Source: a virus
Virus record (IMG/VR): IMGVR_UViG_3300044642_000074
Location: 1-64,000 of that record
Direction: 5' to 3' (one strand)
Length of the DNA stretch: 64,000 bases
The position numbers were made by a program, and so were the translations under genes. Below the pieces are notes generated by a model, which was given only the letters and a program-made list of their open reading frames with translations, was not told the DNA's origin and ran no database searches. This document shows positions 7,317 to 26,512 of this stretch, one piece after another; positions within the stretch are counted from its first letter, which is position 1, and each line of letters begins with the position of its first letter.

Positions 7317-8942
7317 ATGGCAACTCCAGTTTTGAACAATGGTATATTTCTACGAGATACCAGCTATCAAACTAGCTCACACGTAGATTCTTACCACCTT
7401 TCAAACCTCCTAAAGAGTGCGGAACCAACTGATCTTGGTCCCGTAGATCTATGGGCTATGGCTCAAAAGGTAGAAATGCCTTTGTACCAGATGTCCAGCT
7501 TTGGAGGAAAGAACGTTATCTCTGTAGATAACGCACGTGGTGAGTACAAATGGCAGATCCCTGTAGCTCAGGATCTACCCTATATCACAGAAGATATAGA
7601 ATCCGCTAATGCCACTAAAGGTATTGACGGACAGAGCTTCAAGATCAAAGTAAACAAGCGTTCTTTTGGTCATGGTGATATCATCACTTATGACAAGTAC
7701 AACGGTGTTGAAATGTACATCACTGCAGACGATATTATCCCTGCTGGTGACGGTTTCATCTACACAGTACAGCTTGTAAACAATGACAATGCTAAGTTTT
7801 TAGACAACAAGTATTTAAAAGTTGGAACCAAAGTATTCCGTAAGGGTTCTGCCCGTGGTGAATATGGTGAGCGTTTCTCAGATTTGGGTAACGTATCAGC
7901 TGGTTTCCGCGAATTCTACAACTATGTAGGTGGTGCAGAAGCTCACGTACACTACAGCATCAGCTCTCGTGCAGACTTGATGATGAAAGGTGGTATGAAA
8001 GCTGACGGTACTGTACCTGTAGTTGAGCTTTGGAGAAACTTTGACAGTGAGGCTCTTAAAGATCCTTCTGTTACTTCTCTTGAAAGCATGGCTTCTAAAA
8101 TGGGTAAAGATTATGTAAAGAAAGCTTACCAGTCTGGTCAGTTGACTCGTACATTCTTGACTACTCTTGAAGCTGCTCATTTGACTAAGATTGCTAACGA
8201 CATGGAAACTTACCTCATGTGGGGACAAGGTGGACGTGTTAAGCAAGACGGTCCAGATGATATCCGTTTGTCAGTAGGTCTTTGGAAGCAGTTGGATAAC
8301 TCTTACAAGCGTATCTACAACAAAGGTTCTTTCAATCTTGACTTGTTTAAGTCTGAAATCTTCAACTTCTTCAATGGTAAGGTTGAGTTCCAAGGTCCAG
8401 ATCCTAAGCGTCAGCTTGTTGTACAAACTGGTCTTGGTGGTATGAAATTGGTTAACGAAGCAATTAAGAAGGAAGCTATCAACAGCGGTCTTGTTATCAA
8501 TGCTTCTGAAATCGGTGCTATCACTGGTAAAGGTATGGATCTAAACTTCGGTTTTGCATACACTCAGTACGTTATTCCGTTCTTGGCTAACGTTAAGTTT
8601 GTATTGAACCCTGCGTTTGATAACATCCACACCAATGATATTGAGAACCCAATCATTGATGGTTTCCCATTATCTTCTTACAACTTCATCATATTTGATA
8701 TCACAGATAACGTTAACGACAACATCTTCTTGTTGAAGTTAAGCTGGGATAATCAATTGAAGTGGTTCTATCAGAATGGTACAATGGATTACATGGGTCG
8801 TACACAAGGCTTCCAGTCTTCTGGAAACTTCAACGGTTACCGTGTGTTCATGAGCCAGACTATGCCAGCGATCTGGGTGAAAGATCCTACCAAGGTTCTT
8901 AAGATCGTGATGAGAAACCCTGTTACAGGCGGCTCATTCTAA
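7317..8942 (+). CDS. major capsid protein (crAss-like, HK97 fold)
   Basis: 541 aa, strongly biased high-expression codon usage, C-terminal PAIWVKDPTKVLKI motif, synteny portal-scaffold-MCP. Confidence 0.9.
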   Translation: MATPVLNNGIFLRDTSYQTSSHVDSYHLSNLLKSAEPTDLGPVDLWAMAQKVEMPLYQMSSFGGKNVISVDNARGEYKWQIPVAQDLPYITEDIESANATKGIDGQSFKIKVNKRSFGHGDIITYDKYNGVEMYITADDIIPAGDGFIYTVQLVNNDNAKFLDNKYLKVGTKVFRKGSARGEYGERFSDLGNVSAGFREFYNYVGGAEAHVHYSISSRADLMMKGGMKADGTVPVVELWRNFDSEALKDPSVTSLESMASKMGKDYVKKAYQSGQLTRTFLTTLEAAHLTKIANDMETYLMWGQGGRVKQDGPDDIRLSVGLWKQLDNSYKRIYNKGSFNLDLFKSEIFNFFNGKVEFQGPDPKRQLVVQTGLGGMKLVNEAIKKEAINSGLVINASEIGAITGKGMDLNFGFAYTQYVIPFLANVKFVLNPAFDNIHTNDIENPIIDGFPLSSYNFIIFDITDNVNDNIFLLKLSWDNQLKWFYQNGTMDYMGRTQGFQSSGNFNGYRVFMSQTMPAIWVKDPTKVLKIVMRNPVTGGSF

Positions 8943-10143: not shown

Positions 10144-10845
10144 ATGAACAACAACCTTCTACAGATAAAGATCAAACAGCGGCTGAATAAGCTGGCTTCC
10201 CTGGACTATGACAACATAGAATGTTGGCAGATCCAGGAAGCATTTAACAAAGCTCAGCTGGAGTGGGTACGTCGTATGATGTACGGTCTAAACACGCGTA
10301 GAGAAGGTACCGAACAGTCAACCGGTTTGGTGGATGATTTGCAGGTCATATTGAAATCTCAGGATCTGACACCAGTAGACAAACAAACGTTCTTTGAAGC
10401 CACGCTTCCTGCAGACTATCTATACTATGTAAGGACAGATGTTTACGCTAACAGTAAATGCTGCCCTGATAAACGTAAGATGGTTGTATATGAGGTAGAA
10501 GAAGCCAATATGGGTGTTCTTCTAACTTCTGACACTAAAGGTCCTAGCTTTGAATGGGGTGAGACCTTGAGTACACTGGTAGGAGATAAACTTCGTGTAT
10601 ACACCAATGGTGAGTTTAATATCACAGACGTTGGACTTGTATACTACAGGACTCCACGCCAGGTACAGTTTCAGGGTTGTGTAAATCCCATTACAGGTCA
10701 GGCTTTTACAGCCAACCAGGAATGTGAGTTCAAAGACGATGTTGCTGAAATCTTAGTAGATCAGGCAGCAGCTATTCTTGCCGGTGACATAGAAAGCATG
10801 AACCAGTATCAAAGACAGTCACAAGAAGTACAAAAGAATAGCTAA
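10144..10845 (+). CDS. putative head-tail connector / ring protein (crAss gene-74-like)
   Basis: 233 aa; FNKAQLEW, LPADYLYY, YYRTP, EILVDQAA motifs typical of crAss neck ring proteins; synteny. Confidence 0.65.
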   Translation: MNNNLLQIKIKQRLNKLASLDYDNIECWQIQEAFNKAQLEWVRRMMYGLNTRREGTEQSTGLVDDLQVILKSQDLTPVDKQTFFEATLPADYLYYVRTDVYANSKCCPDKRKMVVYEVEEANMGVLLTSDTKGPSFEWGETLSTLVGDKLRVYTNGEFNITDVGLVYYRTPRQVQFQGCVNPITGQAFTANQECEFKDDVAEILVDQAAAILAGDIESMNQYQRQSQEVQKNS

Positions 10846-11258
10846 TGATAAAGACCATACCCAGACCGAGCCCTATGGGTCCTTGTACTGAAACAGCAGC
10901 TATGGTGGCCAATGCTCAGGCTTTGGTTGTATCAATACACCAGTTGCACCTGAAGATTACAGGACCAGGATCACACGCAGCCCATGAAGCTTTGGGTGAT
11001 TTTTATGAAGGTATGCCAGGTCTTGTTGATAAAGTAGCCGAGCAATACCAGGGAGCTCGTGAAAAACTCCTGGAATATCCTACAGTAGCTGCAGTAAAAT
11101 GCAGTTCTGTACAAGAAGCCCTGACTCACATGAAGGAGCTGTACAACGAAATAGTAGAACTGCAACGTATTATGCCGTTCTCAGAAGTAGTGAATCAGCT
11201 AGATGAGATAAAGAGTCTGATAGCTTCTACCAAGTATAAACTAATGTTTTTAAGCTAA
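10845..11258 (+). CDS. ferritin/Dps-like four-helix protein
   Basis: HQLHLKITGPGSHAAHEALGDFYE...DKVAEQYQG resembles the Dps-like H-x-x-H...H-x-x-L-x-x-x-Y...D-x-x-x-E pattern; TAATG overlap. Confidence 0.65.
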   Translation: MIKTIPRPSPMGPCTETAAMVANAQALVVSIHQLHLKITGPGSHAAHEALGDFYEGMPGLVDKVAEQYQGAREKLLEYPTVAAVKCSSVQEALTHMKELYNEIVELQRIMPFSEVVNQLDEIKSLIASTKYKLMFLS

Positions 11259-13370: not shown

Positions 13371-13535
13371 ATGAGAACATGCCCTAACTGCGGGTCACAA
13401 ATTACCTGCGGATGCCAAGACAGAACAGCATCAGATGGAAAGAAAGTATGCAGTACCTGTGTTGCTTTATATGAGCAGCAGATAAAAACCCAGAATCAGA
13501 CACCAAATGAGAACTTATCTACCCAACAAGGTTAA
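13371..13535 (+). CDS. small Cys-rich (zinc-binding-like) protein
   Basis: MRTCPNCGSQITCGCQ...VCSTCV; ATG at 13371 after the AAAAACCAAAAACCC leader. Confidence 0.7.
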   Translation: MRTCPNCGSQITCGCQDRTASDGKKVCSTCVALYEQQIKTQNQTPNENLSTQQG

Positions 13536-14106
13536 ATACTACAAGCAGTTTGCTGACGTAATACATCGCAAGTATAAGCAGATGCGTTACGGTATTGGTT
13601 CCTGCAAACCTGAGCAGGATCAGGACCTTATCAGTATGCGTAAGGAGTTGGTAGAATGGGAGTCTAATGAAGATGACGGAGCTCTTTCAGAAACTAAGAT
13701 TCAGTATAAGACCTGGTTGGGTGTGAAATACGATGATGTCCTGTACTCTAAAGGTGGTACGGGCTTTATTGTTTCTGACGAGGGTAAGGCTCCAGCTATG
13801 GGACTTAACTACATGGGTGGTGCTGCTCAGGGTGGCCAAAACATTATAGAAATTAACTCTGGTGGTTGTATTACCAGGATTAATCTTAACCCTGCTATTA
13901 CTATAAACCAAAACAGCTCATTTGTTCATACCCAGACTACGCCTGCTACAATGTGGGATATAAATCATGGTATGAATCTGATACCTAATGTAACTACTGA
14001 AGATGCTCAAGGTAATGATATAGTGGGTATACTAGATGTGGTAGATAATAACAGAATCAAGATTTATTTTAACACCCCTGTAGCGGGTAAAGCATATTTA
14101 TCATAA
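13507..14106 (+). CDS. tail-associated structural protein with C-terminal HNL-type beta domain
   Basis: C-terminus WDINHGMNLIPNVT...GKAYLS is paralogous to those of the next two genes. Confidence 0.65.
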   Translation: MRTYLPNKVKYYKQFADVIHRKYKQMRYGIGSCKPEQDQDLISMRKELVEWESNEDDGALSETKIQYKTWLGVKYDDVLYSKGGTGFIVSDEGKAPAMGLNYMGGAAQGGQNIIEINSGGCITRINLNPAITINQNSSFVHTQTTPATMWDINHGMNLIPNVTTEDAQGNDIVGILDVVDNNRIKIYFNTPVAGKAYLS

Positions 14107-14657
14107 TGTCAGAAGAAATACCATCTATACCGACATCAGTTAAGTATTACTATGATTTAGATCTTGGTACAAATCAGCTTTTAAATGCTCGTTTGCATCC
14201 AGTGACAACTGCAGAAAGAATTGCTCTTGCTTCTAGTTATAACTCTGCAGATGAAGGTGTAGTAGTATACGATAGTACATTGGATACCTTTTTTGCGTGG
14301 AACGGTAACACTTGGCTTCAGATAGGTATTACACAAAGTGATCTTCATAAAATAGGAGAGGCTTACGACCGTTCAGTAATGAGCGTGGATGTAACAAGTA
14401 CAAACACAGATAGAACTATAACATTAAACTATAGGGACGCAACCTTTACAGCAGATGTATACAAGTATGCTCATATTCACAATCAGCCAAGTGCTTCTGC
14501 ACAGTGGACCATCACTCACAATCTGGGTAAATTCCCTTCGGTTAGTGTGGTTGACTCAGCTAACAATGAAGTAATTGGTGAAGTAGAGTATGTAACAGAT
14601 ACACAGCTTGTTATAAAGTTTTCAGCTCCTTTTAGTGGAAAAGCATTTTTTAATTAA
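14106..14657 (+). CDS. tail-fibre adaptor-like protein
   Basis: N-terminal LDLGTNQLLN; C-terminal WTITHNLGKFPSVSVVD...GKAFFN. Confidence 0.65.
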   Translation: MSEEIPSIPTSVKYYYDLDLGTNQLLNARLHPVTTAERIALASSYNSADEGVVVYDSTLDTFFAWNGNTWLQIGITQSDLHKIGEAYDRSVMSVDVTSTNTDRTITLNYRDATFTADVYKYAHIHNQPSASAQWTITHNLGKFPSVSVVDSANNEVIGEVEYVTDTQLVIKFSAPFSGKAFFN

Positions 14658-14679
14658 TTAATATATAATCTAGATCCCC

Positions 14680-15882
14680 ATGGCAAAAAAGTTTTTAACT
14701 AACCTAGACCTCGCCAAAAATCAGATACTGAACGTAGCGTTACAGAATCTGGCTTCGGCTCCGGCATCACCTGTAGCCGGTCAAATTTACTTCAACACTA
14801 CAGACGTTCGTATTTATTTTTGGGACGGTACTGCGTGGGTAGATGTATCAGGTGATCTTCGTAGTGTAATTGGTGGTAGCGGTCTTACTGCTACCTATAC
14901 TCCTGACGGTGATGAGGTAACTCTTGACGTCAATGTAGATAATGCTACTATTGAAATTAATGCTGATACTCTTCGTGTAAAAGACTTAGGTATCATTACA
15001 GCTAAACTTGCTGACTCTGCAGTTACTACTATAAAGATTAATACCAATGCTGTAACTCTTGGTAAAATTCAGCAGATTGCTGCATTAAGAGTACTAGGTA
15101 ACCTTTCTGGAGGTACAGCTGATGTTGCAGAAGTAACAGTTATTACAGACATGGCAAGTTCTAGTTCTACTACACTTGCTACATCTAGTGCTATCAAGAC
15201 TTACATTGATGCAAACATCGGTGCTCTTGGTAACTTGGAAGGAGGTTGGAGTGCTGCTTCTGGAACTTTTCCTGTTGGATCTTCTCCAGTTGCAGGTACT
15301 AAAGCTGGTGACTACTGGTATGTAACTACTGCTGGTACAACTGGTGGTGTAGCTTTTAATCTTGGTGATGTAATCATTGCTAAAATAAACAATGCTTCTA
15401 CTACTCTTGCTTCAGACTGGGTTCAGTTAGAAGTTAACCGTGACCAGGCTACAGAAACTATATTAGGTCTTGTAGAGATTGCTACTCAAACCGAAACAAA
15501 TGATGGGTTGAGTGATACTGCAGCAGTAACTCCACTTAAATTAGCTGGACGTTCAGCAACAGAAACTCGTACAGGTATTGCAGAGCTTGCTACTCAAGCT
15601 GAGACAAATACCGGTACAGATGATGCACGTATCGTTACACCTCTTAAGTTAAAAACAAACCTTGCTACTTATAAGCATTCAGGAAACGTAGTAGTAACTA
15701 CAGCAGGTAACTATACTGTGACACATAACCTTGGTACAACTGATTTAATGGTAAGAGTTGCAGATTCAGCAGGTGAGACTGTGTTTTGTGATGTAACAAC
15801 TACTTCTGCAAACGTAGTAACTCTTGCTTTTTCTGGATCTCCAATTTCAGGTACATATCGTGTTATTGTAAGCTCACTGTAA
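14680..15882 (+). CDS. tail fibre protein
   Basis: Fibre repeats GLVEIATQTET...AVTPLKL / GIAELATQAET...IVTPLKL; C-terminal THNLG domain. Confidence 0.75.
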   Translation: MAKKFLTNLDLAKNQILNVALQNLASAPASPVAGQIYFNTTDVRIYFWDGTAWVDVSGDLRSVIGGSGLTATYTPDGDEVTLDVNVDNATIEINADTLRVKDLGIITAKLADSAVTTIKINTNAVTLGKIQQIAALRVLGNLSGGTADVAEVTVITDMASSSSTTLATSSAIKTYIDANIGALGNLEGGWSAASGTFPVGSSPVAGTKAGDYWYVTTAGTTGGVAFNLGDVIIAKINNASTTLASDWVQLEVNRDQATETILGLVEIATQTETNDGLSDTAAVTPLKLAGRSATETRTGIAELATQAETNTGTDDARIVTPLKLKTNLATYKHSGNVVVTTAGNYTVTHNLGTTDLMVRVADSAGETVFCDVTTTSANVVTLAFSGSPISGTYRVIVSSL

Positions 15883-15894
15883 TAAACTAACTAA

Positions 15895-16308
15895 ATGAAG
15901 TTTCTATCAGACATACTGGCAAGAGCCGGTCTGGTAGTAGAAGGAGCAGTTACGCTTAACAGTGTACCCAACGCTACTACAGATACAGACAAATTTCTTG
16001 TTGTTGATTCTGGTGCAGTTAAATACCGCACTGGAGCTCAGCTATTATCTGATATTGGAGGAGCTGCTCTTGCAACAGTATTTGTAACAGATTATGATTA
16101 TAATATTACAGGTACTAAAAATGGAACCAATAAAGTATTTACCCTTAGTGGAAACTTTACAAGTGGTACTACAAGAGTTTTTGTTAACGGTATTCGTTAC
16201 ACACGCGGGGCAAGCTATGACTATGTAGAGACAGGAAACAATCAGATAACTTTTACAAATGCTCCAGATGCTGGGGATCTTATAACAGTAGATTACATTA
16301 AACCCTAA
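15895..16308 (+). CDS. short tail-fibre segment/adaptor
   Basis: C-terminal GTKNGTNKVFTL...VFVNG...DY...AP..GD domain shared with the next gene. Confidence 0.65.
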   Translation: MKFLSDILARAGLVVEGAVTLNSVPNATTDTDKFLVVDSGAVKYRTGAQLLSDIGGAALATVFVTDYDYNITGTKNGTNKVFTLSGNFTSGTTRVFVNGIRYTRGASYDYVETGNNQITFTNAPDAGDLITVDYIKP

Positions 16309-16328
16309 AATAATTAAAACATAAAACT

Positions 16329-18230
16329 ATGCCAGTTACTCAAGTTCGTACGAAACAGCAGTTGTTAGTCACAGATAACGTTGACTTTCAAAACTTTCGT
16401 ATTCTAAATCTGGCAGATCCGACAAATGCACAGGATGCTGCCACCAAAGCTTATGTTGACGCTGTAAAACAGGCTTTAGATATTAAAGATTCTGTACGTG
16501 TAGCCACTACAGCTAACATTACTTTGTCTGCTACTCAGACAATTGATGGTGTAACTGTAGCAGCAGGTGACAGAGTCCTTGTAAAAGATCAAACAACCGG
16601 TTCTCAGAACGGTATCTACGTAGTAGCTGCTGGAGCATGGGCACGTTCAATTGATGCAAACATTTCTGCTGAAGTAACACCAGGGTTGTTTGTCTTTGTA
16701 GAAGAAGGTACTGCTAACGGTGACAATGGTTATGTTCTTACTACAAACGGACCTATAACACTAGATACTACAGCTCTTACCTTTACTCAGTTTTCTGGTG
16801 CAGGTCAAATTACAGCAGGTACTGGTTTAACAAAGACCGGTAACACGATTGATGTAATTGGTACAGCTGGTCGTATTGTGGCTAACGCTGACAGTATTGA
16901 CCTTGCCACTGTATCAGTAGGCTCAACAGTTGCAGCTGGACTGCGTAAGTTTGATGTAGATTCTTATGGTAGAATTTCTCAAGCAGCAGCTGCTAATGCA
17001 ACTGATATCAACACTGCTTACGGTTCTCAAACTGCAAACTTTGTTCTTGCAGCTCCTGATGCCGCAGCAGGTAACCCATCGTTTAGAGCTTTAGTAGCAA
17101 ACGATATTCCTAACCACAGTACAGATAAACTTACTAGTGGAACTTTACCAATTGCTCGTGGTGGTACTGGAGTAACTGGAGTTCCAACAAACGGTCAGTT
17201 GCTCATTGGTAATGGTACAGGATATACTGTAGCCGCATTAACTGCTGGTACTGCAATTAGTGTTACAAACGCATCTGGTAGTATTACAATTGCCAACACT
17301 GGTGTTACCGCATTGACTGGTACTGCTAACCAAGTGACTGTATCTGCATCTACTGGATCGGTTACATTATCTCTTCCTCAAAATATTCATACTAGTGCTA
17401 CACCAACCTTTGCTGGTTTAACTATAACAGCAGGTACTGTTACTACAAGTACTCCTTATAGATCATCTACCCAGACTTGGAACGCAGGTGCGGTAAGTTT
17501 TGTAGGTGAATTGGTTAACATTACTGACACAGCTTCTGCTGCGGGTTCAAGATTTATAGAATATCAAACAGGAGGTGTAGCTAGATTTGCTGTAAGAAAA
17601 GATGGTGCGATTGTTACCGGTTCATGGGCAGCTACAACTATTGCTGCTAACGTGGGGGGTACTGGTCAGACATCTTATGCAGTTGGTGATATTCTATTTG
17701 CTGATACTACTTCAACTCTTGCAAAACTTGCAGCTGTAGCAACAGGTAACGTATTGATTTCTGGTGGAGTAAGTACAGCTCCAAGTTATGGTAAAGTTGG
17801 TCTTACTACACATATCAGTGGTACACTTGCCGTAGGTAACGGTGGTACTGGCGTAACTACTACACCTACTAATGGTCAACTTTTGATCGGTAACGGTACT
17901 AACTATACGGTAGCTAATCTTACAGCTGGTACTGGTGTAACTATAACAAACGGATCTGGTTCTATTTCAATTGCTGTAGCTACAGCTTCAATTCTTGCTA
18001 AATCTGATTTTATAGTAAGAGAAATTCCAACAGGTACAGTGAATGGATCAAATGCAACATTTACTCTTGCTAGTACTCCAGTAGCTGGATCTGAATCAGT
18101 ATATGTAAACGGTATTTTACAGAATGTAGGAACCGGTAATGACTATACTATATCAGGTGCTACAGTAACTTTCTTAACAGGAGCTATTCCTCAGACAGGA
18201 GATATTGTACGCGTTTCTTATATAAGATAA
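16329..18230 (+). CDS. tail fibre protein
   Basis: DAATKAYVD, VRVATTANITLS..QTIDGV, GGTG repeats; Gly/Thr/Ala-rich. Confidence 0.8.
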   Translation: MPVTQVRTKQQLLVTDNVDFQNFRILNLADPTNAQDAATKAYVDAVKQALDIKDSVRVATTANITLSATQTIDGVTVAAGDRVLVKDQTTGSQNGIYVVAAGAWARSIDANISAEVTPGLFVFVEEGTANGDNGYVLTTNGPITLDTTALTFTQFSGAGQITAGTGLTKTGNTIDVIGTAGRIVANADSIDLATVSVGSTVAAGLRKFDVDSYGRISQAAAANATDINTAYGSQTANFVLAAPDAAAGNPSFRALVANDIPNHSTDKLTSGTLPIARGGTGVTGVPTNGQLLIGNGTGYTVAALTAGTAISVTNASGSITIANTGVTALTGTANQVTVSASTGSVTLSLPQNIHTSATPTFAGLTITAGTVTTSTPYRSSTQTWNAGAVSFVGELVNITDTASAAGSRFIEYQTGGVARFAVRKDGAIVTGSWAATTIAANVGGTGQTSYAVGDILFADTTSTLAKLAAVATGNVLISGGVSTAPSYGKVGLTTHISGTLAVGNGGTGVTTTPTNGQLLIGNGTNYTVANLTAGTGVTITNGSGSISIAVATASILAKSDFIVREIPTGTVNGSNATFTLASTPVAGSESVYVNGILQNVGTGNDYTISGATVTFLTGAIPQTGDIVRVSYIR

Positions 18231-18247
18231 TTTTAAATAACTGATCT

Positions 18248-21200
18248 ATGCCTGTAACAGGTCTACGAGGACGACAAATACGTGACGGTGATGTACTAAG
18301 GGCTGACTTAAATACGTCAACCTCTGGCTCAGCCGTCATTACCAAGATTATAGCTGGTACTAATATATCTATTAGTTCCACTGGTGTAGATGCTGGTACT
18401 GGCGATGTTACTATTTCTGCAACTGGAACTGGTCTTAATGGTACAGGTTTTGTACGTATGAGTGGTACAACCGTTTCTTATATTACAGGTACTAGTGCAC
18501 AGTTTGTGAAAGCTAACGGATCACTTGACTCTAACTCATATTTTGCAAATGGAGACTATTTTGCACCAAATGCTTCATTTGGTCAGCGTCCTTTAAGATC
18601 ACAGATTGTAGATAATGTTTTATACCAGGCTGATAGTAGGTTTAGTGTTACCAGAACAGATACCAGTGGAAGAATGGGTAATGCTTTGTTTAATGGAAAC
18701 TATGACCAAACAGCTTTTACAGTAGCAGCTGGTACATCACAAACATTTAATATAAACTTTACAGCTAACGGTAACTCTTCAATTACATATACAGAAGGTG
18801 CTGTTTACCTTCACTTTTATTATACTACTGTACCAGCATCAGTTTCAGGTAGAGTAAAGGATGGTAATTCAACTTGGAGAGATATAACCGGGTGGACCAA
18901 TGTTTCTACCAATGGTAGTTATGCAGTTTGGCGAGGAAACGTTCCTACTTTTAACTACATGACCGATATGGAAATCACCATAACGGCAAACGCTGGTAAT
19001 AACGCAGGTTTAAGCCAGTGGGAATATGTGATGGGCCGTCCGGGTCAGTATGAGTGGGGTGTGATAAGTAAAATGCAGGATAATAACCTGTGGACAAACC
19101 TTACTTTTAGAAATGGTACAAATGCTGCTACTATAAGTTTAGCACCAAGTACAGGAGTTGTTACTGCAGCTTCTTTTGTAAGATCAGGTGGTACTGCTTC
19201 TCAGTTCTTAAAAGCAAACGGTACTATAGATTCTAATACATACCTGACAGGAAACCAGTCTATTACTGTATCTGGTGACGCTTCTGGTTCTGGTGCTACT
19301 GCTATAGCTTTAACACTTGCAACTGTCAACTCTAATATTGGAACGTTTAATAACGTCACCGTCAATGCTAAAGGTTTAGTAACAGCTGCTTCTAACGTTT
19401 CCTACCTTACAGGTAACCAGTCGATCAGTTTGACAGGTGAAGCTACAGGATCTGGAGCCACCTCTATATCAGTGACGCTAACAAACAGTGCAGTGATCGG
19501 TAAACTGCTTACCGGACTGAACATTACCGGTGGTACTGTAGCAGCTACTGATACTATCCTTGCTGCTTTTGGTAAACTCCAAAACCAGGTCAACGGACTA
19601 ACTGGTGGTGTTACTTACCAGGGAACATGGAATGCATCTACTAATACACCGGCACTTGCATCCTCTACCGGTACAAAAGGATTTTACTACGTAGTAAGTG
19701 TAGCAGGAACTACTGCTCTTAATGGTGTATCTTCCTGGAGTCTTGGTGACTGGGCTATCTATAACGGTACAGCCTGGGAAAAAGTAGACAACACAGATGC
19801 TGTTGTTTCTGTAAATGGATTTACCGGTGCCGTGTCTCTTACTACAGCTAACGTTTCTGAAAGCGGAAACTTATATTATACAGATGCTAGAGCTCGTGCA
19901 GCAATTACTCTTACTACAACTGGATCAAGTGGTGCAGCAGCATATTCTGGTGGTACGTTAAACATACCAACCTATACACTAGCTGGATTAGGCGGACAGA
20001 CTGCATTGAACGGTACAGGTTTTGTTAAGATATCTGGTACAACAATAACGTATGATAACAGTACATATGCTTTAAGCAGTCATACTCACTCTTATTTTAT
20101 AGGAACAACAGCAGTACAAACTTCATCTGCTAACCAGGGTCTTACTGGTATAAGCAGTATTGGTTTTGTTGCTGAGGGTTCTGACAGTGCTTCTATATCA
20201 ACTACAATAAGTGGAACTAGCACGTTCTTTGACTTTAACTTAACTGATGATAATAACAACGATGAATGGCGTTGGAGGTTTACTCCTTCTGGAGCAACTG
20301 TTTATAACGCCATGCGTCTTGTACCTGTATCTAACACTGCAGCAAATCTTATAGTTTCAGGTACAATTACTGGGTCTCAGATTATTAGATCTGGTGGAAC
20401 TGCGTCTCAGTTTCTTAAGGCGGATGGTTCTGTTGATTCATCAAGTTACGTACCAACCTCACGCACACTAACAATCAATGGTACTGCGTTTGATTTAAGT
20501 GCGGATAGGTCTTGGACAATTACAGCAACAGGAGGAGTATCTGCTCTTAGTGCAGGCAGTGGCATATCTGTAAGCTCTACTACTGGTGCTATTACTGTTA
20601 CAAACACCGGTTTATTATCTGCTACGGCAGGCTCGGGTATATCTGTAAGTACAACAAGCGGGGTGCTAAATATTTTAAACACTGGTATTCTTTCTAGTAC
20701 GGCTGGTAGTGGTATATCTGTTTCTACAGCTAGCGGTGTATTAAATATTGTTAACACAGGTCTGTTATCTGCAACATCTGGTTCAGGTATAAGTGTATCA
20801 ACGGCTAGTGGCACACTTAACATTGTTAATACAGGCTTATTATCTGCAACAGCAGGAACAGGAATAAGTGTTTCTACTACATCAGGAACATTGAATATAG
20901 TTAATACCATTACTAATACAAATCAACTAACTAATGGTGCAGGATACATAACTGGTATTACATCAGGTATGGTGACTACTGCATTAGGATATACTCCTTA
21001 TAATAGTACTAATCCCAATGGGTATATAACAGCATCTTCAAGCAATACTCTTACAAACAAGAGTGGTAACATTAGCCAGTGGACTAATGACAGCGGTTAT
21101 ATAACTGCAACAAGTTCCACATATACTTATTCAGCAAGTTTAACTCTCTCTACCAGTTGGCAGAATACTGGTGTTACTGCAACACAACTTTCTACTAGTG

Positions 21201-21487
21201 GTGTATACATTGTTACTTGTGCTGTTAATGACTTTGGCGTCGGTGGAGGTCAGTATACAGAAACATACGTGGGTATTATGTATTGGTATGCAGCCGGAAC
21301 AAATAGCAACAATGCTGCAGAAATATCACTACATCATTCCGGTCATGCTGATAATGATAGATATATATATTTAAGAACATGGACTGATACTGGAGGAGCA
21401 ACAGGTAAAATATATCTTCAGATAAAAGGAAACGGTAATAACTCAGCAGCTTCTACTTACTCATTTACATTTAAAAGACTACTATAA
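18248..21487 (+). CDS. long tail fibre protein
   Basis: 1079 aa; VTVNAKGLVTAA, QFLKANG repeats and 25-aa tandem repeats. Confidence 0.8.
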   Translation: MPVTGLRGRQIRDGDVLRADLNTSTSGSAVITKIIAGTNISISSTGVDAGTGDVTISATGTGLNGTGFVRMSGTTVSYITGTSAQFVKANGSLDSNSYFANGDYFAPNASFGQRPLRSQIVDNVLYQADSRFSVTRTDTSGRMGNALFNGNYDQTAFTVAAGTSQTFNINFTANGNSSITYTEGAVYLHFYYTTVPASVSGRVKDGNSTWRDITGWTNVSTNGSYAVWRGNVPTFNYMTDMEITITANAGNNAGLSQWEYVMGRPGQYEWGVISKMQDNNLWTNLTFRNGTNAATISLAPSTGVVTAASFVRSGGTASQFLKANGTIDSNTYLTGNQSITVSGDASGSGATAIALTLATVNSNIGTFNNVTVNAKGLVTAASNVSYLTGNQSISLTGEATGSGATSISVTLTNSAVIGKLLTGLNITGGTVAATDTILAAFGKLQNQVNGLTGGVTYQGTWNASTNTPALASSTGTKGFYYVVSVAGTTALNGVSSWSLGDWAIYNGTAWEKVDNTDAVVSVNGFTGAVSLTTANVSESGNLYYTDARARAAITLTTTGSSGAAAYSGGTLNIPTYTLAGLGGQTALNGTGFVKISGTTITYDNSTYALSSHTHSYFIGTTAVQTSSANQGLTGISSIGFVAEGSDSASISTTISGTSTFFDFNLTDDNNNDEWRWRFTPSGATVYNAMRLVPVSNTAANLIVSGTITGSQIIRSGGTASQFLKADGSVDSSSYVPTSRTLTINGTAFDLSADRSWTITATGGVSALSAGSGISVSSTTGAITVTNTGLLSATAGSGISVSTTSGVLNILNTGILSSTAGSGISVSTASGVLNIVNTGLLSATSGSGISVSTASGTLNIVNTGLLSATAGTGISVSTTSGTLNIVNTITNTNQLTNGAGYITGITSGMVTTALGYTPYNSTNPNGYITASSSNTLTNKSGNISQWTNDSGYITATSSTYTYSASLTLSTSWQNTGVTATQLSTSGVYIVTCAVNDFGVGGGQYTETYVGIMYWYAAGTNSNNAAEISLHHSGHADNDRYIYLRTWTDTGGATGKIYLQIKGNGNNSAASTYSFTFKRLL
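20540..20907 (+). repeat. about five tandem 75-bp (25-aa) repeats in the tail fibre
   Basis: Consensus LLSATAGSGISVSTxSGxLNIVNTG repeated head-to-tail. Confidence 0.85.
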
Positions 21488-21490
21488 CAT

Positions 21491-24400
21491 ATGTCATTTA
21501 GAATAGATCAACTAGCGGTACTTAATCTTGTAACAGTAGGAAACTCTGTTACAGCAGGTTCATTTGTTAGAAGTGGAGGCACAGCTGTTCAGTTTTTAAT
21601 GGCTGATGGTTCAGTATCTACCAATCCAGGTTGGTTAACGAGTATTACATCAAACCAGGTTACGACAGCTTTAGGGTACACTCCTTACAATGCTACTAAT
21701 CCTAATGGATATACTTCTAATACAGGAACTGTGACATCTGTATCTGGTACAGGAACCGTTTCAGGTCTTACGCTTACAGGTACCGTAACAAGCTCTGGTT
21801 CACTCACCCTTGGTGGTACGTTATCAGCAAGTATAGACAATATCACAGATGAGCATCGGTTGTTCAATAACATGGGAGATAATCATGGAACAAGATCATC
21901 CTTTGATGCTACAACACCTTCTTACAATTTTGGTTGGAGATATGTCCAGGGTAATACAAACGGTCCTGGCGTAAACTCTGCTACTCAGTATTATTCTGTA
22001 TATGTTGGTCTTGGTAATGACTATCCTGCAACTGGTGCAGGTTCTTATGGTATGCAACTTGCCATACCTAGAAACGTTACTACTCCATATATATCTGTAC
22101 GGTACAATGAAAATAACGGACTGGGATCTTGGCAGAAAATAGCTGCCGGTTATGCTGATACAGCTGGTGCTCTTACCAGTATGAACATATCCCAATTTAC
22201 CAATAACAGCGGGTATACAACAAACGTAGGAACTGTCACCTCTGTTTCTGGTACAGGTACAGTTAGCGGACTAACACTTAGTGGTACAGTTACTTCTTCA
22301 GGGTCTTTGACTTTGGGTGGGACATTGACGCTAACTAGCGGTCAGGTTACTGGGGCTTTAGGGTATACACCATATAACTCTAGTAATCCTAATGGTTATA
22401 TAACTTCTTCAGGTTCTATTAGTGGATCAGCTGGTTCTGTGGCTTGGACTAATGTAACAGGAAGACCTAGTGCATTAAGTTCATTTACTAATGATATAGT
22501 AGCTAGAACTACCCTTAGTGCTTCTGGTGATTTTCAATTTGGTGGTCAAGATTTAGCTCAGAATAACTTTAGTTTATCGGGTGCTACCACAGACACAGAT
22601 CAGTTTGGTAGATATTATTATTCTGGCACATCAGGGTCTATCTGGTCGAGGTATTTACCGGTTGATAAGACTGGTAGATATAGAATGAGACTTAGATGGA
22701 AAGCTACAGCATCAAACAGTACATATCTTGCTGTGATTCTTTTAGACACCAACGGTAACAATATCAACGGTGCTGGGACATATTGGGCATATCCGTGGAG
22801 CGGGTCTGGAGCACCGACGTCATGGACAACAAGTGAATACTGGTATGATGGATCGTCTTTCCCGTCAAATGCTGCTTATGTAGCTTTTGGTATATCTCAT
22901 ACTAACTATGGTGGCGGGTCTGCAACCTATTATGTATCTCAGCTTGAACTTGAGAGGTATAATGATAAGATAGCTGGTAATACTGTATGGCACGCTGGTA
23001 ATTTAACCAACTTAAACCAACTTTCTAATGGACCAGGGTATATAACTGGCTATACTGAGACGGATACACTTGCTACTGTAACAGGAAGAGGTGCTAGTAC
23101 ATCAACTAATTCAATTTTTACTGGTGGACTACAAGCTAGAAGAAATCAATCTGATAATAACTACACTACAGCAGCATTATGGACTGAGTCTTATGGTGGT
23201 ACTACCACAGGTATTGCATTTCATATTAGCGGAAATGTAGGAAAGTTCTTAGAAATGAGAACTAATGGTGTTCTTTATTGGGAGAATGGTCAAGTGTGGA
23301 CATCAAGTAATCTAACTAATCTAAATCAGTTAAGTAACGGACCAGGATACATTACAGCATCGTATGGAGGCTTTGCTACGAGACAAGATGGAACAAGATT
23401 TACTACTAACTATAACTCCATCTTGTCTTCTGGATTTTTTAATGCAGAAGGACAACCTTCTAATGCACCAAATAGTTATGGTCAGCTTATAGTAGCTAAA
23501 GGTTCAGATACAGGTCTTCAGATAGCAGGTGGCTATAACTCTAACAACCTATATTTTAGAGGATGGGGATACGGCCCAGAAGCAGATGGTTTTTATCCAT
23601 GGAGAACAGTATGGCATAATGGTAACTTGACCAATTTAAACCAATTAACAAACGGGCCAGGATATATCACAAGTTCTTCTTTAGGTGCCTACTTACCACT
23701 TGCAGGTGGTACTATGACCGGTAATATCGGATGGGGTCAAACAGACAGAGGATTAACCTGGGATTTTAATACAGACGGAGCCTACATAAAATTCTTCAAC
23801 ACCGGTAACGGAGATACAGACTCAAGACTTGAGTATGGTACTTATGATGACGGTAATGAATACCACAGATTTATTGTATCTAATGTAGAAAGGTTTACTA
23901 TAAAAGCTGATGGAGCTAGGGTAAGTGGCAATTTAGTATGGCATGCAGGTAACCTTACAAACCTCAACCAACTTAGTAACGGTCCTGGTTATATTACATC
24001 TGCTGCAAACTGGTTTGGAGCTGTTACAACAGGAGGTACTACTGATTGGAACCATGTTACTAATACAAGACCGGGTACAGGCTACACGTTGTTACTTGGG
24101 TCACATTCTAACGGTCCTGGTTCAGGTGAGTACTATCATTCACTTAATCTTGAGTATAGTTCAAAAGACGGTACTGGGAATGTTACTCAAATGGCTATTT
24201 CATATGGTAGTCCAGGGAATAAGCTATACATGCGTGGACGATATGATGGATCTTGGAGTGGATGGAATCAGTTTGTAACAAACAGCGGTACCTGGGGTAT
24301 AAACGTCACAGGTACTTCAGGCTCTATATCTGGATTCAACAATCCAACCACATCAGCCACTGCTAATACCATAGCATATCGTGATGCACAAGGAGATATA

Positions 24401-26512
24401 ACAGTAAGAGAACTTGTAATGAATGTTGGTGTTCAAAATTTTACACCATCGTCAATGGTGGCTATATATCCTACAACTAACCAAGCTGTAAAAGTAACTG
24501 CTTCAGGAGCAAGAGAGTTTTTGAATGTTCCAACAAGAACAGGTGGAGATGCTTCCGGTACATGGGGTATTAATATAAGTGGTATAGCTGCTCGTGCAAC
24601 AAGGGCTAATGGAAACTTTTATATTGATGATAACTATGGTAATACTATAGTTGGTGTATATGCATCTACAAGATATCAAGGTGTTTTTGCAATGGGTGAT
24701 TCTTATAAGTTACCTGGAGATGGTACTAGCACCGGTTCTCTTTATGGTTTAGCATGGTCTCATCCTAACGCTGGTGGTGTAGCCGGAAACTTAAATACAC
24801 ATGGTCTACTTGTAATGGAGAATGGTACGTTCTTAGCCGCTATATCAGGTTCTATAAGAGCAAGAGATGATATGCGTGCTCCTATATTTTATGATTCAAA
24901 CAATACAGGTTATTACTTAGACCCTAACAGCACAAGCTATTTGTACTATATTCAGATGCCACATCTTGGTAACGGTACACCAAATATTAGGGTGAATGAT
25001 AATGCTGCAGAAAACTGGAGAGCTATTCAAGTAGGAAATGGGAACATGGGTATAGGAATTAGTGGCAGTTCAAGAAGTTGGTCTGGTAGAGTTAGTATGG
25101 CGTTTCATGTAGGAGTTTCTGAATCATTTAGGGTACACTCTGATGGCTGGGACTCATTATTTGAAGTATGGGGTTCTACCGGTTATGCCAGAACTAAAGG
25201 TAGTTTAGAAGTTGGTGGTGATGTTTATCTTGGAACTAGAGGTAATTGGATGACTACGTTATTAGATGCTAAAGCAAGCACAGGACACCTTCATGATGAC
25301 CGTTACTTCTTTGATTATGGTTTTACAACAGGATATCCTGGAACTGAAGCAAACGGAATGCCTGGTAACAGATCTGCATTTACTTATTCTAATGGTGCTC
25401 CTTTAACAGGATGTATAGCTCATTTTGGAGCATCTGGTTACGGTATTCAACTTAACGGAGACTATGGTGGAGACTCTTTTTCTATGAGAAGTAGAAATGG
25501 GGACAATGCTACATGGAGACCTTGGAAACGTTTACTTACTGATTATAACTATAACAACTATTCACCAACATTAACTGGAGGTAATGCTTCAGGAACTTGG
25601 GGTATAAGTATTACAGGTAGTGCATCTTCTGCAACATTTTTAAATAATAGCAACTATATTAATAGATGTGGTTCATCTGGAAATGCAAATACTGATTTCC
25701 AAAATACACCAGCTGGTTCAGTAAGACATAACGGTGATGATGCTAATTTATCAAACTCCCCAGGAGGAACTTGGTGGTTTTATGACAATTATAGACACTC
25801 AAATGGTAGTAACTTTTGGGGTACCCAAGTAGCGTGGGGTTGGGAAGATAATGCTAACAGACTAGCTACCAGAAATATTTCTGGAGGAAATTTTGGTGGG
25901 TGGGTTTACTACTTAAACTCAAGTAACTTTAGCAACTGGGCAGTACCTATTGGAGGAGGTTATTTAGATAATATATTTTATTTTAGAACAAACTTAGGTG
26001 GGTATTGTGGTTCTCTTAGCAATGCCAGAATGCAAGCATATTCTGATAGCAATAACTCAGCATTTATATCATTCCATAAGGGAAGTCAGTATGCTGTTAA
26101 TTTGGGATTGGATGCCGACAATGTAATGCGTATTGGTGGCTGGTCTGCTTCTTCTAACAGATGGCAGCTTGATATGTCTGGTAACATGACGGTAGCCGGT
26201 GATGTAACCGCATACTCTGACGCCAGGGTTAAAGAAAATGTGGTAACTGTAGAAGATGCTCTTGATCGTGTACAAAAGATGAGAGGTGTGTTTTACAACC
26301 GCACAGATTCTGATGATAAAAAACGCAAAGTGGGAGTTATAGCTCAAGAGATTATGGAGGTGTTACCAGAAGTAGTTAACCAGGATAATGAGGGTATGTA
26401 CAACGTATCTTATGGGAACGTTGTGGGTGTCCTGATCGAAGCTATCAAGGAACAGCAGTCTCAGATAGAGGACTTAAAGAATCAGATTACAGAACTAAAA
26501 GAAAACAAGTAA
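21491..26512 (+). CDS. receptor-binding tail fibre with C-terminal intramolecular chaperone (peptidase S74-type)
   Basis: 1673 aa; several knob-like modules; C-terminal YSDARVKENV...GVIAQE...EAIKEQQ coiled coil. Confidence 0.88.
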   Translation: MSFRIDQLAVLNLVTVGNSVTAGSFVRSGGTAVQFLMADGSVSTNPGWLTSITSNQVTTALGYTPYNATNPNGYTSNTGTVTSVSGTGTVSGLTLTGTVTSSGSLTLGGTLSASIDNITDEHRLFNNMGDNHGTRSSFDATTPSYNFGWRYVQGNTNGPGVNSATQYYSVYVGLGNDYPATGAGSYGMQLAIPRNVTTPYISVRYNENNGLGSWQKIAAGYADTAGALTSMNISQFTNNSGYTTNVGTVTSVSGTGTVSGLTLSGTVTSSGSLTLGGTLTLTSGQVTGALGYTPYNSSNPNGYITSSGSISGSAGSVAWTNVTGRPSALSSFTNDIVARTTLSASGDFQFGGQDLAQNNFSLSGATTDTDQFGRYYYSGTSGSIWSRYLPVDKTGRYRMRLRWKATASNSTYLAVILLDTNGNNINGAGTYWAYPWSGSGAPTSWTTSEYWYDGSSFPSNAAYVAFGISHTNYGGGSATYYVSQLELERYNDKIAGNTVWHAGNLTNLNQLSNGPGYITGYTETDTLATVTGRGASTSTNSIFTGGLQARRNQSDNNYTTAALWTESYGGTTTGIAFHISGNVGKFLEMRTNGVLYWENGQVWTSSNLTNLNQLSNGPGYITASYGGFATRQDGTRFTTNYNSILSSGFFNAEGQPSNAPNSYGQLIVAKGSDTGLQIAGGYNSNNLYFRGWGYGPEADGFYPWRTVWHNGNLTNLNQLTNGPGYITSSSLGAYLPLAGGTMTGNIGWGQTDRGLTWDFNTDGAYIKFFNTGNGDTDSRLEYGTYDDGNEYHRFIVSNVERFTIKADGARVSGNLVWHAGNLTNLNQLSNGPGYITSAANWFGAVTTGGTTDWNHVTNTRPGTGYTLLLGSHSNGPGSGEYYHSLNLEYSSKDGTGNVTQMAISYGSPGNKLYMRGRYDGSWSGWNQFVTNSGTWGINVTGTSGSISGFNNPTTSATANTIAYRDAQGDITVRELVMNVGVQNFTPSSMVAIYPTTNQAVKVTASGAREFLNVPTRTGGDASGTWGINISGIAARATRANGNFYIDDNYGNTIVGVYASTRYQGVFAMGDSYKLPGDGTSTGSLYGLAWSHPNAGGVAGNLNTHGLLVMENGTFLAAISGSIRARDDMRAPIFYDSNNTGYYLDPNSTSYLYYIQMPHLGNGTPNIRVNDNAAENWRAIQVGNGNMGIGISGSSRSWSGRVSMAFHVGVSESFRVHSDGWDSLFEVWGSTGYARTKGSLEVGGDVYLGTRGNWMTTLLDAKASTGHLHDDRYFFDYGFTTGYPGTEANGMPGNRSAFTYSNGAPLTGCIAHFGASGYGIQLNGDYGGDSFSMRSRNGDNATWRPWKRLLTDYNYNNYSPTLTGGNASGTWGISITGSASSATFLNNSNYINRCGSSGNANTDFQNTPAGSVRHNGDDANLSNSPGGTWWFYDNYRHSNGSNFWGTQVAWGWEDNANRLATRNISGGNFGGWVYYLNSSNFSNWAVPIGGGYLDNIFYFRTNLGGYCGSLSNARMQAYSDSNNSAFISFHKGSQYAVNLGLDADNVMRIGGWSASSNRWQLDMSGNMTVAGDVTAYSDARVKENVVTVEDALDRVQKMRGVFYNRTDSDDKKRKVGVIAQEIMEVLPEVVNQDNEGMYNVSYGNVVGVLIEAIKEQQSQIEDLKNQITELKENK

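What the first reader, a model, noticed from the sequence alone, without database searches (positions are those of the whole stretch)
13507..18330. Plug-and-socket domain chain across consecutive tail-fibre genes
Seen: 13507, 14106 and 14680 each end in a paralogous HNL-type beta domain, and the gene following each starts with a related K-[FY]-[LY] motif (KYYYDLDL..NQ, KKFLTNLDL..NQ, MKFLSDI). Then 15895 and 16329 each end in a different paralogous domain (GTxNGxNxxFTL...VxVNG...DY...GD), and the gene following each starts MPVT (MPVTQVR, MPVTGLR). The C-terminal domain type therefore predicts the N-terminal motif of the next gene. Inference: a segmented fibre is built head-to-tail in gene order through two orthogonal docking pairs, making segments insertable and swappable.
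Basis: partly seen in the sequence, partly recalled or inferred. Interest (0 to 1): 0.7.

Follow-up and report, generated by a model that had tools for sequence, protein, structure and literature searches.

The report
Snap-together joints between phage fibre genes
Seven neighbouring fibre genes of a crAss-like phage each end in a small domain that predicts how the next gene begins, and the same end-to-start pairs recur in hundreds of unrelated phages, so they are probably reusable joints, one kind known and one undescribed, though no binding has been shown.

Summary
Genes at 13507, 14106 and 14680 end in a related ~65-aa beta domain ("HNL"). Genes at 15895 and 16329 end in a second domain. The next genes start KYYYDLDL/KKFLTNLDL/MKFL and MPVT/MPVT.

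The adjacency rule holds well beyond this genome. In non-redundant IMG/VR pairs, 48 of 50 genes after an HNL-1 end carry the N-terminal "plug" domain, against 5 of 333 other ORFs. Conversely, 50 of 51 plug genes follow an HNL end. The pairing is type-specific: ends like G.AYLN precede DLxxN[EQ] in 81/89 pairs, and ends like YRVVVIG in 0/67. The same pair occurs in Streptococcus, Gordonia, Rhodobacter and Dinoroseobacter phages.

The second domain is a T4 gp10-like (XD2/XD3) domain, a known docking platform for the N-terminal peptide of the next receptor-binding protein. Here it sits at the C-terminus, which suggests a chain rather than a branch. Its rule held in only about half of the pairs tested.

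The HNL/plug pair has no model in the local Pfam copy and no PDB relative by sequence, yet HNL covers about 17,000 protein clusters.

Docking and linear order are inferred from comparative genomics only. No multimer fold or experiment was possible, and conserved synteny remains a rival. Earlier reports of this scan described similar joint codes built from other modules on other DNA.

The parts
13371..13535 (+). Small Cys-rich (CxxC...CGC) ORF directly upstream of g1 and overlapping its start; possibly part of the anchor
   Evidence: Conserved at this position in L004, L007, L013, L020, L021, L027, L047, L054, L058 and L075. Its role was not tested.
13507..14106 (+). g1, 199 aa: lineage-specific N-terminal part, then a divergent HNL-1 domain at the extreme C-terminus (nt 13900-14103). 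Proposed first (anchor) segment.
   Evidence: HNL profile E 1e-27 and the domain ends at the last residue. No plug at its N-terminus. No Pfam or PDB match.
14106..14657 (+). g2, 183 aa: divergent plug-1 (about nt 14139-14330), then canonical HNL-1 (nt 14451-14654). Proposed extender made of plug plus socket.
   Evidence: Plug profile E 2e-8, HNL E 4e-33. AF2 pLDDT 83.7: HNL residues 122-183 score about 98, and residues 1-30 are of low confidence. Residues 28-75 resemble the Mtd N-terminal prism (Z 4.4).
14680..15882 (+). g3, 400 aa: canonical plug-1 (nt 14680-14859), T4 gp34/gp12-type fibre repeats (about nt 15433-15675), HNL-2 at the C-terminus (about nt 15685-15870)
   Evidence: Plug E 1e-32, HNL-2 E 1e-23. 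PDB hits to T4-type long and short tail fibre repeats, E 7e-42. phrog_8309 over the full length.
15895..16308 (+). g4, 137 aa: MKFLSDILARAG start, then a T4 gp10-like XD domain (nt 16084-16305). Proposed converter between the two joint systems.
   Evidence: AF2 pLDDT 81, with the domain above 90. CBA120 TSP4 XD2 Z 8.4, rmsd 1.8 A, 63 residues, 21% identity. The profile hits T4gp10-like regions of solved receptor-binding proteins, E 3e-7.
16329..18230 (+). g5, 633 aa: MPVTQVR start, a fibre body, and a second XD domain at the C-terminus (nt 17997-18227)
   Evidence: XD profile E 9e-34 at residues 556-633. Residues 57-191 resemble a solved 'capsid decoration protein', 9nx3, E 1e-6. PHROG tail fibre and head decoration families.
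18248..21487 (+). g6, 1079 aa: MPVTGLRGRQ start, a long fibre, and a conserved ~125-aa C-terminal domain (nt 21098-21484) that ends FTFKRLL
   Evidence: The same start follows the g5-like XD gene in L084. The C-terminal domain is 62-71% identical in L195 and L196.
21491..26512 (+). g7, 1673 aa: MSFRIDQL start, a long fibre, and a Peptidase_S74 intramolecular chaperone (about nt 26216-26377). Proposed distal segment.
   Evidence: Pfam PF13884 E 4e-14. M[SA]FR[IV]D follows the g6-type end in L195 and L196, although the protein bodies differ.

Best explanation
The seven genes g1 to g7 encode segments of one composite, probably trimeric, virion fibre of a crAss-like phage. Each segment ends in a small beta-sandwich domain at the very last residues. 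There are three HNL domains, two T4 gp10-like XD domains and one g6-type domain. In the proposed mechanism each of these trimeric end-domains offers a face to which the N-terminal 10-60 residues of the next gene's product dock, so the segments join non-covalently in gene order. g1 would anchor the fibre to the virion through its lineage-specific N-terminal part. g2 would be an extender and g4 a converter between joint systems. g7, with its S74 chaperone, would be the distal tip.

Shown: the domains, their terminal positions, the pairing rule, its generality and type-specificity, and the XD identity of the second domain.

Inferred: physical docking, trimer geometry, linear rather than branched topology, and the attachment site (tail hub or capsid).
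For: 1. Rule, forward direction: 48/50 non-redundant genes after an HNL-1 end carry an N-terminal plug-1, against 5/333 other ORFs. All 5 of those follow an HNL-2 end.

2. Rule, converse: 50/51 plug genes fetched by plug similarity lie 2-40 nt downstream of a gene that ends in HNL, with 0-2 residues after the domain.

3. Type specificity: G.AYLN ends precede DLxxN[EQ] in 81/89 pairs, and YRVVVIG ends in 0/67. Two rarer HNL subtypes have their own plug subtypes.

4. The conserved unit straddles the gene boundary. Median similarity is 0.50 for HNL-1 and 0.55 for the plug, against 0.13 and 0.08 for the two protein bodies. There are 21 unrelated body clusters on each side. Gene A ranges from 53 to 698 aa and gene B from 257 to 937 aa.

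5. The plug is conserved across phages with unrelated virions: a crAss-like phage, Streptococcus T12, Gordonia GMA6 and Clawz, Rhodobacter RcMrWorf and Dinoroseobacter R5C. In several of these the pair lies outside the tail module. Its partner is therefore more likely encoded in the cassette than in the core virion.

6. The second socket is a T4 gp10-like XD domain. Such domains bind the N-terminus of the next trimeric protein in T4, CBA120, G7C and KP32 (PMC8825819; PMC13352976).

7. In the whole genome, sockets and plugs occur only in this array, in matching numbers and in consecutive order.

8. Relatives swap segments but keep the joint grammar.

9. The plug residues are of low confidence in the monomer models. 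That fits a peptide that folds on a partner.
Against: All the statistics can also arise from a conserved gene cassette inherited as a block. HNL-1 and plug similarities do not co-vary across pairs (Spearman -0.03). HNL also occurs as internal tandem arrays of up to 12 copies, so it is a general bead domain and not a dedicated socket. The XD rule holds in only about half of the non-redundant pairs (10/21). A seven-segment chain of about 4300 residues would be unusually long. Part of g5 resembles a capsid decoration protein, so some segments may sit on the head.
Confidence: 0.6

Rival explanations
1. Conserved synteny only. The genes are tandem paralogous fibres or decorations inherited as a block. 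Each attaches to the virion on its own through its N-terminus, and the HNL and XD domains are distal glycan-binding or Ig-like tips.
For: Small C-terminal beta-sandwiches are common fibre tips, and the HNL model weakly resembles pyocin and T7 fibre tips. There is no covariation between HNL-1 and the plug. HNL occurs as internal repeats. g5 resembles a capsid decoration protein.
Against: The plug is conserved across phages with unrelated virion architectures, while the upstream protein's N-terminus varies. The first gene of each array has a socket but no plug, and the last has a plug but no socket. Adaptors of 83-120 aa are little more than an HNL domain. XD domains are documented docking modules.
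Confidence: 0.2
2. The joints are real, but the topology is branched or alternative rather than one linear fibre. Proteins with the same plug type (g5 and g6; g2 and g3) compete for sockets of the same type, or extenders such as g2 and g5 self-polymerise as the A-1(L) neck fibre gp81 does.
For: XD domains build branched complexes in CBA120, G7C and KP32. g2 and g5 carry both a plug and a socket of one class. The A-1(L) neck fibre is a bead chain with about 14 copies of one extender (PMC10966104). The PhicrAss001 fibres have inner and outer assemblies (PMC10172136).
Against: Within the array each socket subtype is followed by its own plug subtype. The g1-type HNL precedes the g2-type plug in all four relatives, and the XD of the small adaptor and the XD of the mid fibre precede different plug variants in five lineages. 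That argues for ordered, specific pairing.
Confidence: 0.13
3. The small HNL-1 proteins are assembly chaperones for the downstream fibre and are not virion parts.
For: They are small, are encoded next to the fibre, and their domain is homologous to the fibre's own C-terminal HNL-2.
Against: Known fibre chaperones are usually encoded downstream (general knowledge). The association is with the fibre's N-terminal motif, not with its C-terminus. In some phages the HNL-1 domain ends proteins of 400-700 aa.
Confidence: 0.07

Closest known systems
T4 gp10-like (XD2/XD3) branching domain plus N-terminal conserved peptide: KP32 gp37/gp38, CBA120 TSP4 with TSP1-3, G7C gp66/gp63.1, T4 gp10 with gp11/gp12
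   Same: The g4 and g5 C-terminal domain has this fold and profile (Z 8.4 to TSP4 XD2; E 3e-7 to a K64-1 depolymerase N-terminal region). The partner is the N-terminal peptide of the protein encoded by the next gene, as in KP32.
   Different: Here the domain is the last ~75 residues of the protein, so it would extend a chain rather than make a side branch. It also occurs in a 137-aa protein that is only plug plus socket. The peptide motif is M-P-V-T. Binding was not shown here.
T4 long tail fibre gp34-gp35-gp36-gp37
   Same: A fibre built from separately encoded segments joined end to end, with genes in assembly order (established knowledge). g3 carries gp34/gp12-type repeats.
   Different: The joints are different. 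None of the HNL, plug-1 or XD end modules matches T4 fibre junctions by sequence.
Lactococcal phage TP901-1 / Tuc2009 BppU-BppL tripod
   Same: The C-terminal beta domain of an upstream-encoded adaptor holds the N-termini of the downstream-encoded receptor-binding trimer. The HNL model aligns to the BppU C-terminal domain (Z 5.3, rmsd 1.7 A, 52 residues).
   Different: The Z-score is in the range of chance fold resemblance. There is no sequence similarity, and no BppU_N Pfam hit in the T12 or other adaptors.
Anabaena myophage A-1(L) neck fibre gp82-gp81-gp80 (PMC10966104)
   Same: Anchor, extender and tip proteins from one operon form a bead chain, and the operon lies away from the other structural genes. 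The HNL/plug cassette is similarly placed in T12, Clawz, GMA6 and RcMrWorf.
   Different: No sequence relation was tested or seen, and extender copy number is unknown here.
PhicrAss001 tail and head fibres (PMC10172136)
   Same: Same virus order. N-terminal residues of fibre proteins (gp22 1-26, gp21 1-38, gp29 1-58) are the docking elements, and gp22 carries further fibre proteins.
   Different: No detectable sequence homology of g1-g7 to solved PhicrAss001 chains. The joints between its fibre proteins were not resolved.

Membership tests
T4 gp10-like XD2/XD3 docking domain (g4 and g5 C-termini) | ~60-aa beta-jellyroll fold superposable on TSP4 / gp10 XD2-XD3 | tested here: met
   VIA-align: 7rfv_A residues 187-250, Z 8.4, rmsd 1.8 A, 63 aligned, 21% identity. 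XD3 (7rej_A 265-334) Z 7.1. This is comparable to TSP4 XD2 against XD3 (Z 8.7, PMC8825819).
T4 gp10-like XD2/XD3 docking domain (g4 and g5 C-termini) | Sequence-profile relation to known T4gp10-like regions of receptor-binding proteins | tested here: met
   Profile A7 against PDB: K64-1 depolymerase S2-4 residues 124-171, E 3e-7. Also Shigella phage fibres, Kp9 and PhiM1 fibres. TSP4 residues 204-250 only E 0.03.
T4 gp10-like XD2/XD3 docking domain (g4 and g5 C-termini) | Binds the N-terminus of another trimeric fibre or spike protein | not testable with these tools
   Only genomic adjacency: 10/21 next genes start M[PAS].[TS][QKGRL], against 15/585 controls.
HNL / plug-1 joint (family proposed here) | HNL domain ends at the last 0-2 residues of the upstream protein | tested here: met
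   True for g1, g2 and all IMG/VR adaptors. All 53 single-domain proteins among the best 150 of 1.84 billion representatives end with it.
HNL / plug-1 joint (family proposed here) | The next gene, 2-40 nt downstream, starts with M-x(0-3)-K-F-L..DLxxN[EQ] and a P..P..GQIYYNT prism | tested here: met
   g2 and g3 in the window; 48/50 and 50/51 in the two directions.
Mtd_N beta-prism (PF18454), for the plug-1 domain | Pfam model match above threshold, or a clear fold match | tested here: inconclusive
   1 of 24 plug sequences at E 0.05. Fold Z 4.4, rmsd 1.8 A over 42 residues to 1yu0.
BppU (TP901-1 baseplate upper protein) | BppU_N Ig-like domain and a BppU C-terminal domain | tested here: inconclusive
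   No Pfam hit at E <= 0.01 in T12 gp61 or four other adaptors. The C-terminal fold match is only Z 5.3.
Pfam 38.1 PF26696 PTL_trimer | Match to the family model | not testable with these tools
   The family is absent from the local Pfam. It is carried by 41% of members of the nearest ESM Atlas cluster of g2 (score 0.95). The score falls to 0.77 with the HNL part alone.

The most novel reading that the evidence does not exclude
The HNL end-domain and the KFL..DLxxNE plug are an undescribed, near-universal connector of tailed phages, covering about 17,000 protein clusters in phages of at least four bacterial phyla. Together with C-terminal XD domains it forms a small set of type-specific joints. 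If so, the order and topology of multi-protein fibres could be read directly from gene order and end motifs, and segments could be exchanged between unrelated phages.
Probability: 0.45. Interest if true: 0.75.

Novelty: new variant of a known kind. Interest (0 to 1): 0.6.

Why it matters
Host recognition in most uncultured phages depends on fibre genes that carry no annotation. A joint grammar would let one predict which fibre proteins belong to one assembly, in what order, and which one carries the host-binding tip. It would also explain why fibre genes recombine at within-gene boundaries. The HNL/plug pair is abundant, lacks a family model in the local Pfam and lacks a solved structure. One co-expression or cryo-EM experiment would therefore annotate thousands of proteins. 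The XD result extends an experimentally validated docking principle from branched spikes of enterobacterial phages to linear chains in a crAss-like phage.

Tried and rejected
- Sequence searches of g1, g2, the HNL profile and the plug profile against PDB gave nothing. The plug hit only leucine-rich repeats, through the L..L.L..N pattern, which I take as coincidental.
- Foldseek on the g2 model gave no match at E <= 0.001.
- hhalign of HNL against XD gave probability 0.3%, so the two sockets are not demonstrably homologous. Their models do hit many of the same PDB chains.
- Read-through or frameshift fusion of the two genes is rejected. The spacer frames are 67:64:42 and the median gap is 11 nt.
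- A natural fusion (Rosetta stone) was not found. The one 'internal plug' (L136) was only the GQ.WY...W sub-motif. Internal HNL copies are followed by further HNL copies, not by plugs.
- The mirror-tree test for co-evolution was negative (rho -0.03).
- The first MSA for g2 misaligned the plug fragments and was discarded.
- No cultured relative of this phage was found. The 448-aa neighbour has no match in the phage collection.
- The weak DUF2460 Pfam hit of g4 (E 0.006, below cut-off) is not used.
Full report
CONTEXT. The window is the first 64 kb of a 114.8-kb IMG/VR virus record. All long ORFs lie on the + strand. PHROGs identify a large terminase (605-2824), a portal (3129-5873) and a major head protein (7317-8942). 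Earlier first-reader notes on the same genome describe a muzzle protein and a virion RNA polymerase, which points to a crAss-like phage (not re-tested here). The finding covers g1 13507-14106, g2 14106-14657, g3 14680-15882, g4 15895-16308 and g5 16329-18230. I extend it to g6 18248-21487 and g7 21491-26512.

OBSERVATION. The C-terminal ~65 residues of g1, g2 and g3 align, with W.I.HNL near the start and F....G.A... at the end. An HNL profile finds exactly these three places in the whole genome. g4 and g5 end in a different domain that is 40% identical between them. g2 and g3 share a ~60-aa N-terminal domain (K-[FY]-[LY]..DL..NQ.LN....P..G.....W.G..W). g4 shares only MKFL. g5 and g6 start MPVT. 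The local Pfam has no model for g1-g3. PHROGs place them in families of unknown function.

GENERALITY OF THE HNL RULE. A tblastn search of g2 against cultured phages found the HNL domain at the C-terminus of short proteins in the following phages:
- Streptococcus T12-like prophages
- Rhodobacter phages
- Dinoroseobacter phages

In each, the next gene starts M-x-x-K-[FI]-[LF]..[DN][LF]..N[QE] and ends in a second HNL type. Gordonia phages GMA6 (gp102/gp103) and Clawz (gp68/gp69) show the same arrangement. In T12 and Clawz the pair lies after the lysis genes, and in RcMrWorf between the DNA polymerase and the ribonucleotide reductase. It therefore behaves as a self-contained cassette.

Using a plug profile built from g2 and g3 alone, 48 of 50 non-redundant genes after an HNL-1 end carry the plug at their N-terminus. 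The two misses are visibly homologous. Among other ORFs only 5 of 333 carry it, and all five follow an HNL-2 end (Fisher p = 9e-53).

The converse also holds. Loci were fetched by plug similarity (527 confirmed). Among them, 50 of 51 non-redundant plug genes lie just downstream of a gene whose HNL domain ends 0-2 residues before the stop.

TYPE SPECIFICITY. Among 173 non-redundant pairs:
- Ends of the form G.AYLN (HNL-1) are followed by DLxxN[EQ] in 81/89 pairs. Most exceptions are near-misses of the regular expression.
- Ends of the form YRVVVIG (HNL-2) are followed by it in 0/67 pairs (p = 1e-35).
- HNL-2 ends are followed instead by a short M-x(0-3)-[KRNQS]-[FILVY]-[LIFVYK] start in 25/31 pairs, against 52/358 controls. 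The strict K[FY][LY] form occurs in 7/31 pairs against 1/358. The relaxed pattern was defined after looking at the data.
- Two rarer HNL-1 subtypes have their own plug subtypes. The g1-type end precedes the g2-type plug in all relatives. The GC.[FY]LN end precedes a plug with an extra G[LI][ND]V.GN turn in 4/5 pairs, against 0/84 for the canonical end. These cases are confined to single lineages.

WHERE THE CONSERVATION LIES. In 71 complete pairs the median normalised similarity by segment was as follows:

| Segment | Median similarity |
|---|---|
| HNL-1 | 0.50 |
| Plug | 0.55 |
| Upstream protein body | 0.13 |
| Fibre body | 0.08 |
| HNL-2 | 0.34 |

The conserved unit therefore straddles the gene boundary. 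It is embedded in at least 21 unrelated bodies on each side, in 33 combinations. Spacers have a median of 11 nt and no frame preference, so the products are separate. HNL-1 and plug similarities do not co-vary (rho = -0.03). That fits a universal interface, but it gives no positive evidence of co-evolution.

THE HNL DOMAIN AT LARGE. A profile search of 1.84 billion representative proteins found 17,238 clusters at E <= 1e-3 and 10,426 at E <= 1e-10. All 53 single-domain proteins in the best 150 end with the domain at their last residue. The other 97 carry two to twelve tandem copies, some inside large fibres with an S74 chaperone. HNL is therefore a general bead domain of fibres, and a C-terminal copy is the last bead of a polypeptide.

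STRUCTURES.
- The AF2 model of g2 (pLDDT 83.7) gives a compact beta-sandwich for residues 122-183 (pLDDT about 98) and low confidence for residues 1-30.
- Foldseek finds nothing clear for that model.
- VIA-align gives only middling matches, with a best Z of 6.8. They include N-terminal or neck domains of several phage tail complexes, the BppU C-terminal domain of TP901-1 (Z 5.3), and the Mtd N-terminal prism for residues 28-75 (Z 4.4).
- The AF2 model of g4 (pLDDT 81.3; the domain above 90) matches CBA120 TSP4 XD2 best (Z 8.4, rmsd 1.8 A, 21% identity), then XD3 (Z 7.1) and the T7 gp17 N-terminal domain (Z 5.4).
- The domain profile also hits T4gp10-like regions of solved receptor-binding proteins by sequence (E 3e-7).

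Such XD domains are the binding sites for gp11 and gp12 in T4 and for TSP1 and TSP2 in CBA120 (PMC8825819). In KP32 the branching domain of RBP1 binds the first 29 residues of RBP2, which is encoded by the next gene. This was shown by ITC and by engineered phages (PMC13352976).

THE XD RULE. In IMG/VR loci found with the g4/g5 domain, 10 of 21 non-redundant next genes start M[PAS].[TS][QKGRL], against 15 of 585 controls (p = 5e-10). Several of those controls are themselves chain members. MP[VI]T occurs in 3/21 against 0/585. Exceptions include next genes that encode signal-peptide proteins. This rule therefore holds within a subfamily only. Five lineages show the same three-gene unit:
1. A small adaptor that ends in XD.
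2. A fibre that starts ..T[QKL][VI]K and ends in XD.
3. A fibre that starts ..[TS][QG]..G.[QR].[.]DG.

THE CHAIN IN THIS GENOME AND ITS RELATIVES. Genome-wide there are three HNL domains, two XD domains, two plug-1 domains, two MPVT starts and one MSFR start. All lie in this array, and each socket is followed by its plug. The ~125-aa end of g6 (..FTFKRLL) is followed 3 nt later by M[SA]FR[IV]D in two relatives whose protein bodies differ. With n = 3 this is only a hint of a further joint.

Relatives with the same backbone keep the joints but vary the segments:
- L007 and L013 have g1-g2-g3 and then one long protein with the g4-type start.
- L020 and L054 lack the g2 extender.
- L084 has a 399-aa HNL-1 protein instead of g1 plus g2, followed by g3-g4-g5-g6 homologues.

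INTERPRETATION. The most economical reading is that these end-to-start pairs are docking joints, and that the array encodes a composite fibre assembled in gene order. The XD pair is a C-terminal, chain-forming variant of a documented docking system. The HNL/plug pair is a separate, very widespread and unannotated one.

What is missing is any direct evidence of contact. Block inheritance of a cassette would give the same statistics. The topology could be branched, or extenders could polymerise. The anchoring site is unknown: the similarity of g5 to a capsid decoration protein and the head and tail fibres of PhicrAss001 leave both tail and capsid open. I put docking in gene order at about 0.6.

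RELATION TO EARLIER REPORTS OF THIS SCAN. Several follow-up reports describe 'plug-and-socket' codes in other phages, built from other modules such as C-terminal peptide tags with Mtd_N caps and T4-type joints. None shares sequence with g2, and only one window shares a few words with g3. They gave me the leads to the A-1(L) paper and to Mtd_N. They are not independent evidence.

Noticed in passing
window 13371-13535 (+): A ~54-aa Cys-rich ORF (MRTCPNCG..CGCQ..C..C) overlaps the start of g1. It is conserved directly upstream of the HNL-1 adaptor in ten related IMG/VR contigs. It looks like a zinc ribbon and has no annotation.
   Followed up: partly
L010-L017, L039, L042, L045, L062, L077, L079, L136 (gene upstream of the HNL-1 adaptor): In many other lineages the adaptor gene overlaps by 4 nt a ~115-aa gene that ends ..G.F.V..EVTR, and the adaptor then starts MS..[IV].V. 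This may be one more joint upstream of the chain.
   Followed up: no
P0005, P0007, P0020, P0026: HNL domains form tandem arrays of 4-12 copies in proteins of 600-2400 aa. One (P0020) is a fibre that ends in an S74 chaperone. The family has about 17,000 clusters and no model in the local Pfam.
   Followed up: partly
window 21098-21560; L195 2501-2960; L196 2501-2960: The g6-type C-terminal domain (..TYTFTFKRLL) is followed 3 nt later by M[SA]FR[IV]D...SGGT.SQFLKA.GS in three genomes whose protein bodies differ. This is a candidate further joint type.
   Followed up: partly
window 15880-15897: The g3 stop codon and the g4 start codon are in the same frame, separated by 12 nt. A stop-read-through reference would give a natural g3-g4 fusion for structure prediction.
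   Followed up: no
window 10845-11258 (+): A Dps-like gene ('starvation-inducible' DNA-binding protein, phrog_858, E 1e-19) sits inside the structural gene block. It is conserved at the same place in L007 and L013.
   Followed up: no
window 14680-14760 and alignment A8: The plug's first 25 residues (..FLTNLDL.KNEL.N..IQNLA) score as a single leucine-rich repeat against PDB LRR proteins. I take this as convergence of a strand-turn motif, but it hints at how the peptide may fold.
   Followed up: no
L001 (Streptococcus phage T12, gp61-gp64, next to speA) and L111 (Gordonia phage Clawz gp68-gp71): The HNL/plug fibre cassette lies after the lysis genes, in the region where prophages usually carry accessory or conversion genes. 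It is not in the tail module.
   Followed up: partly
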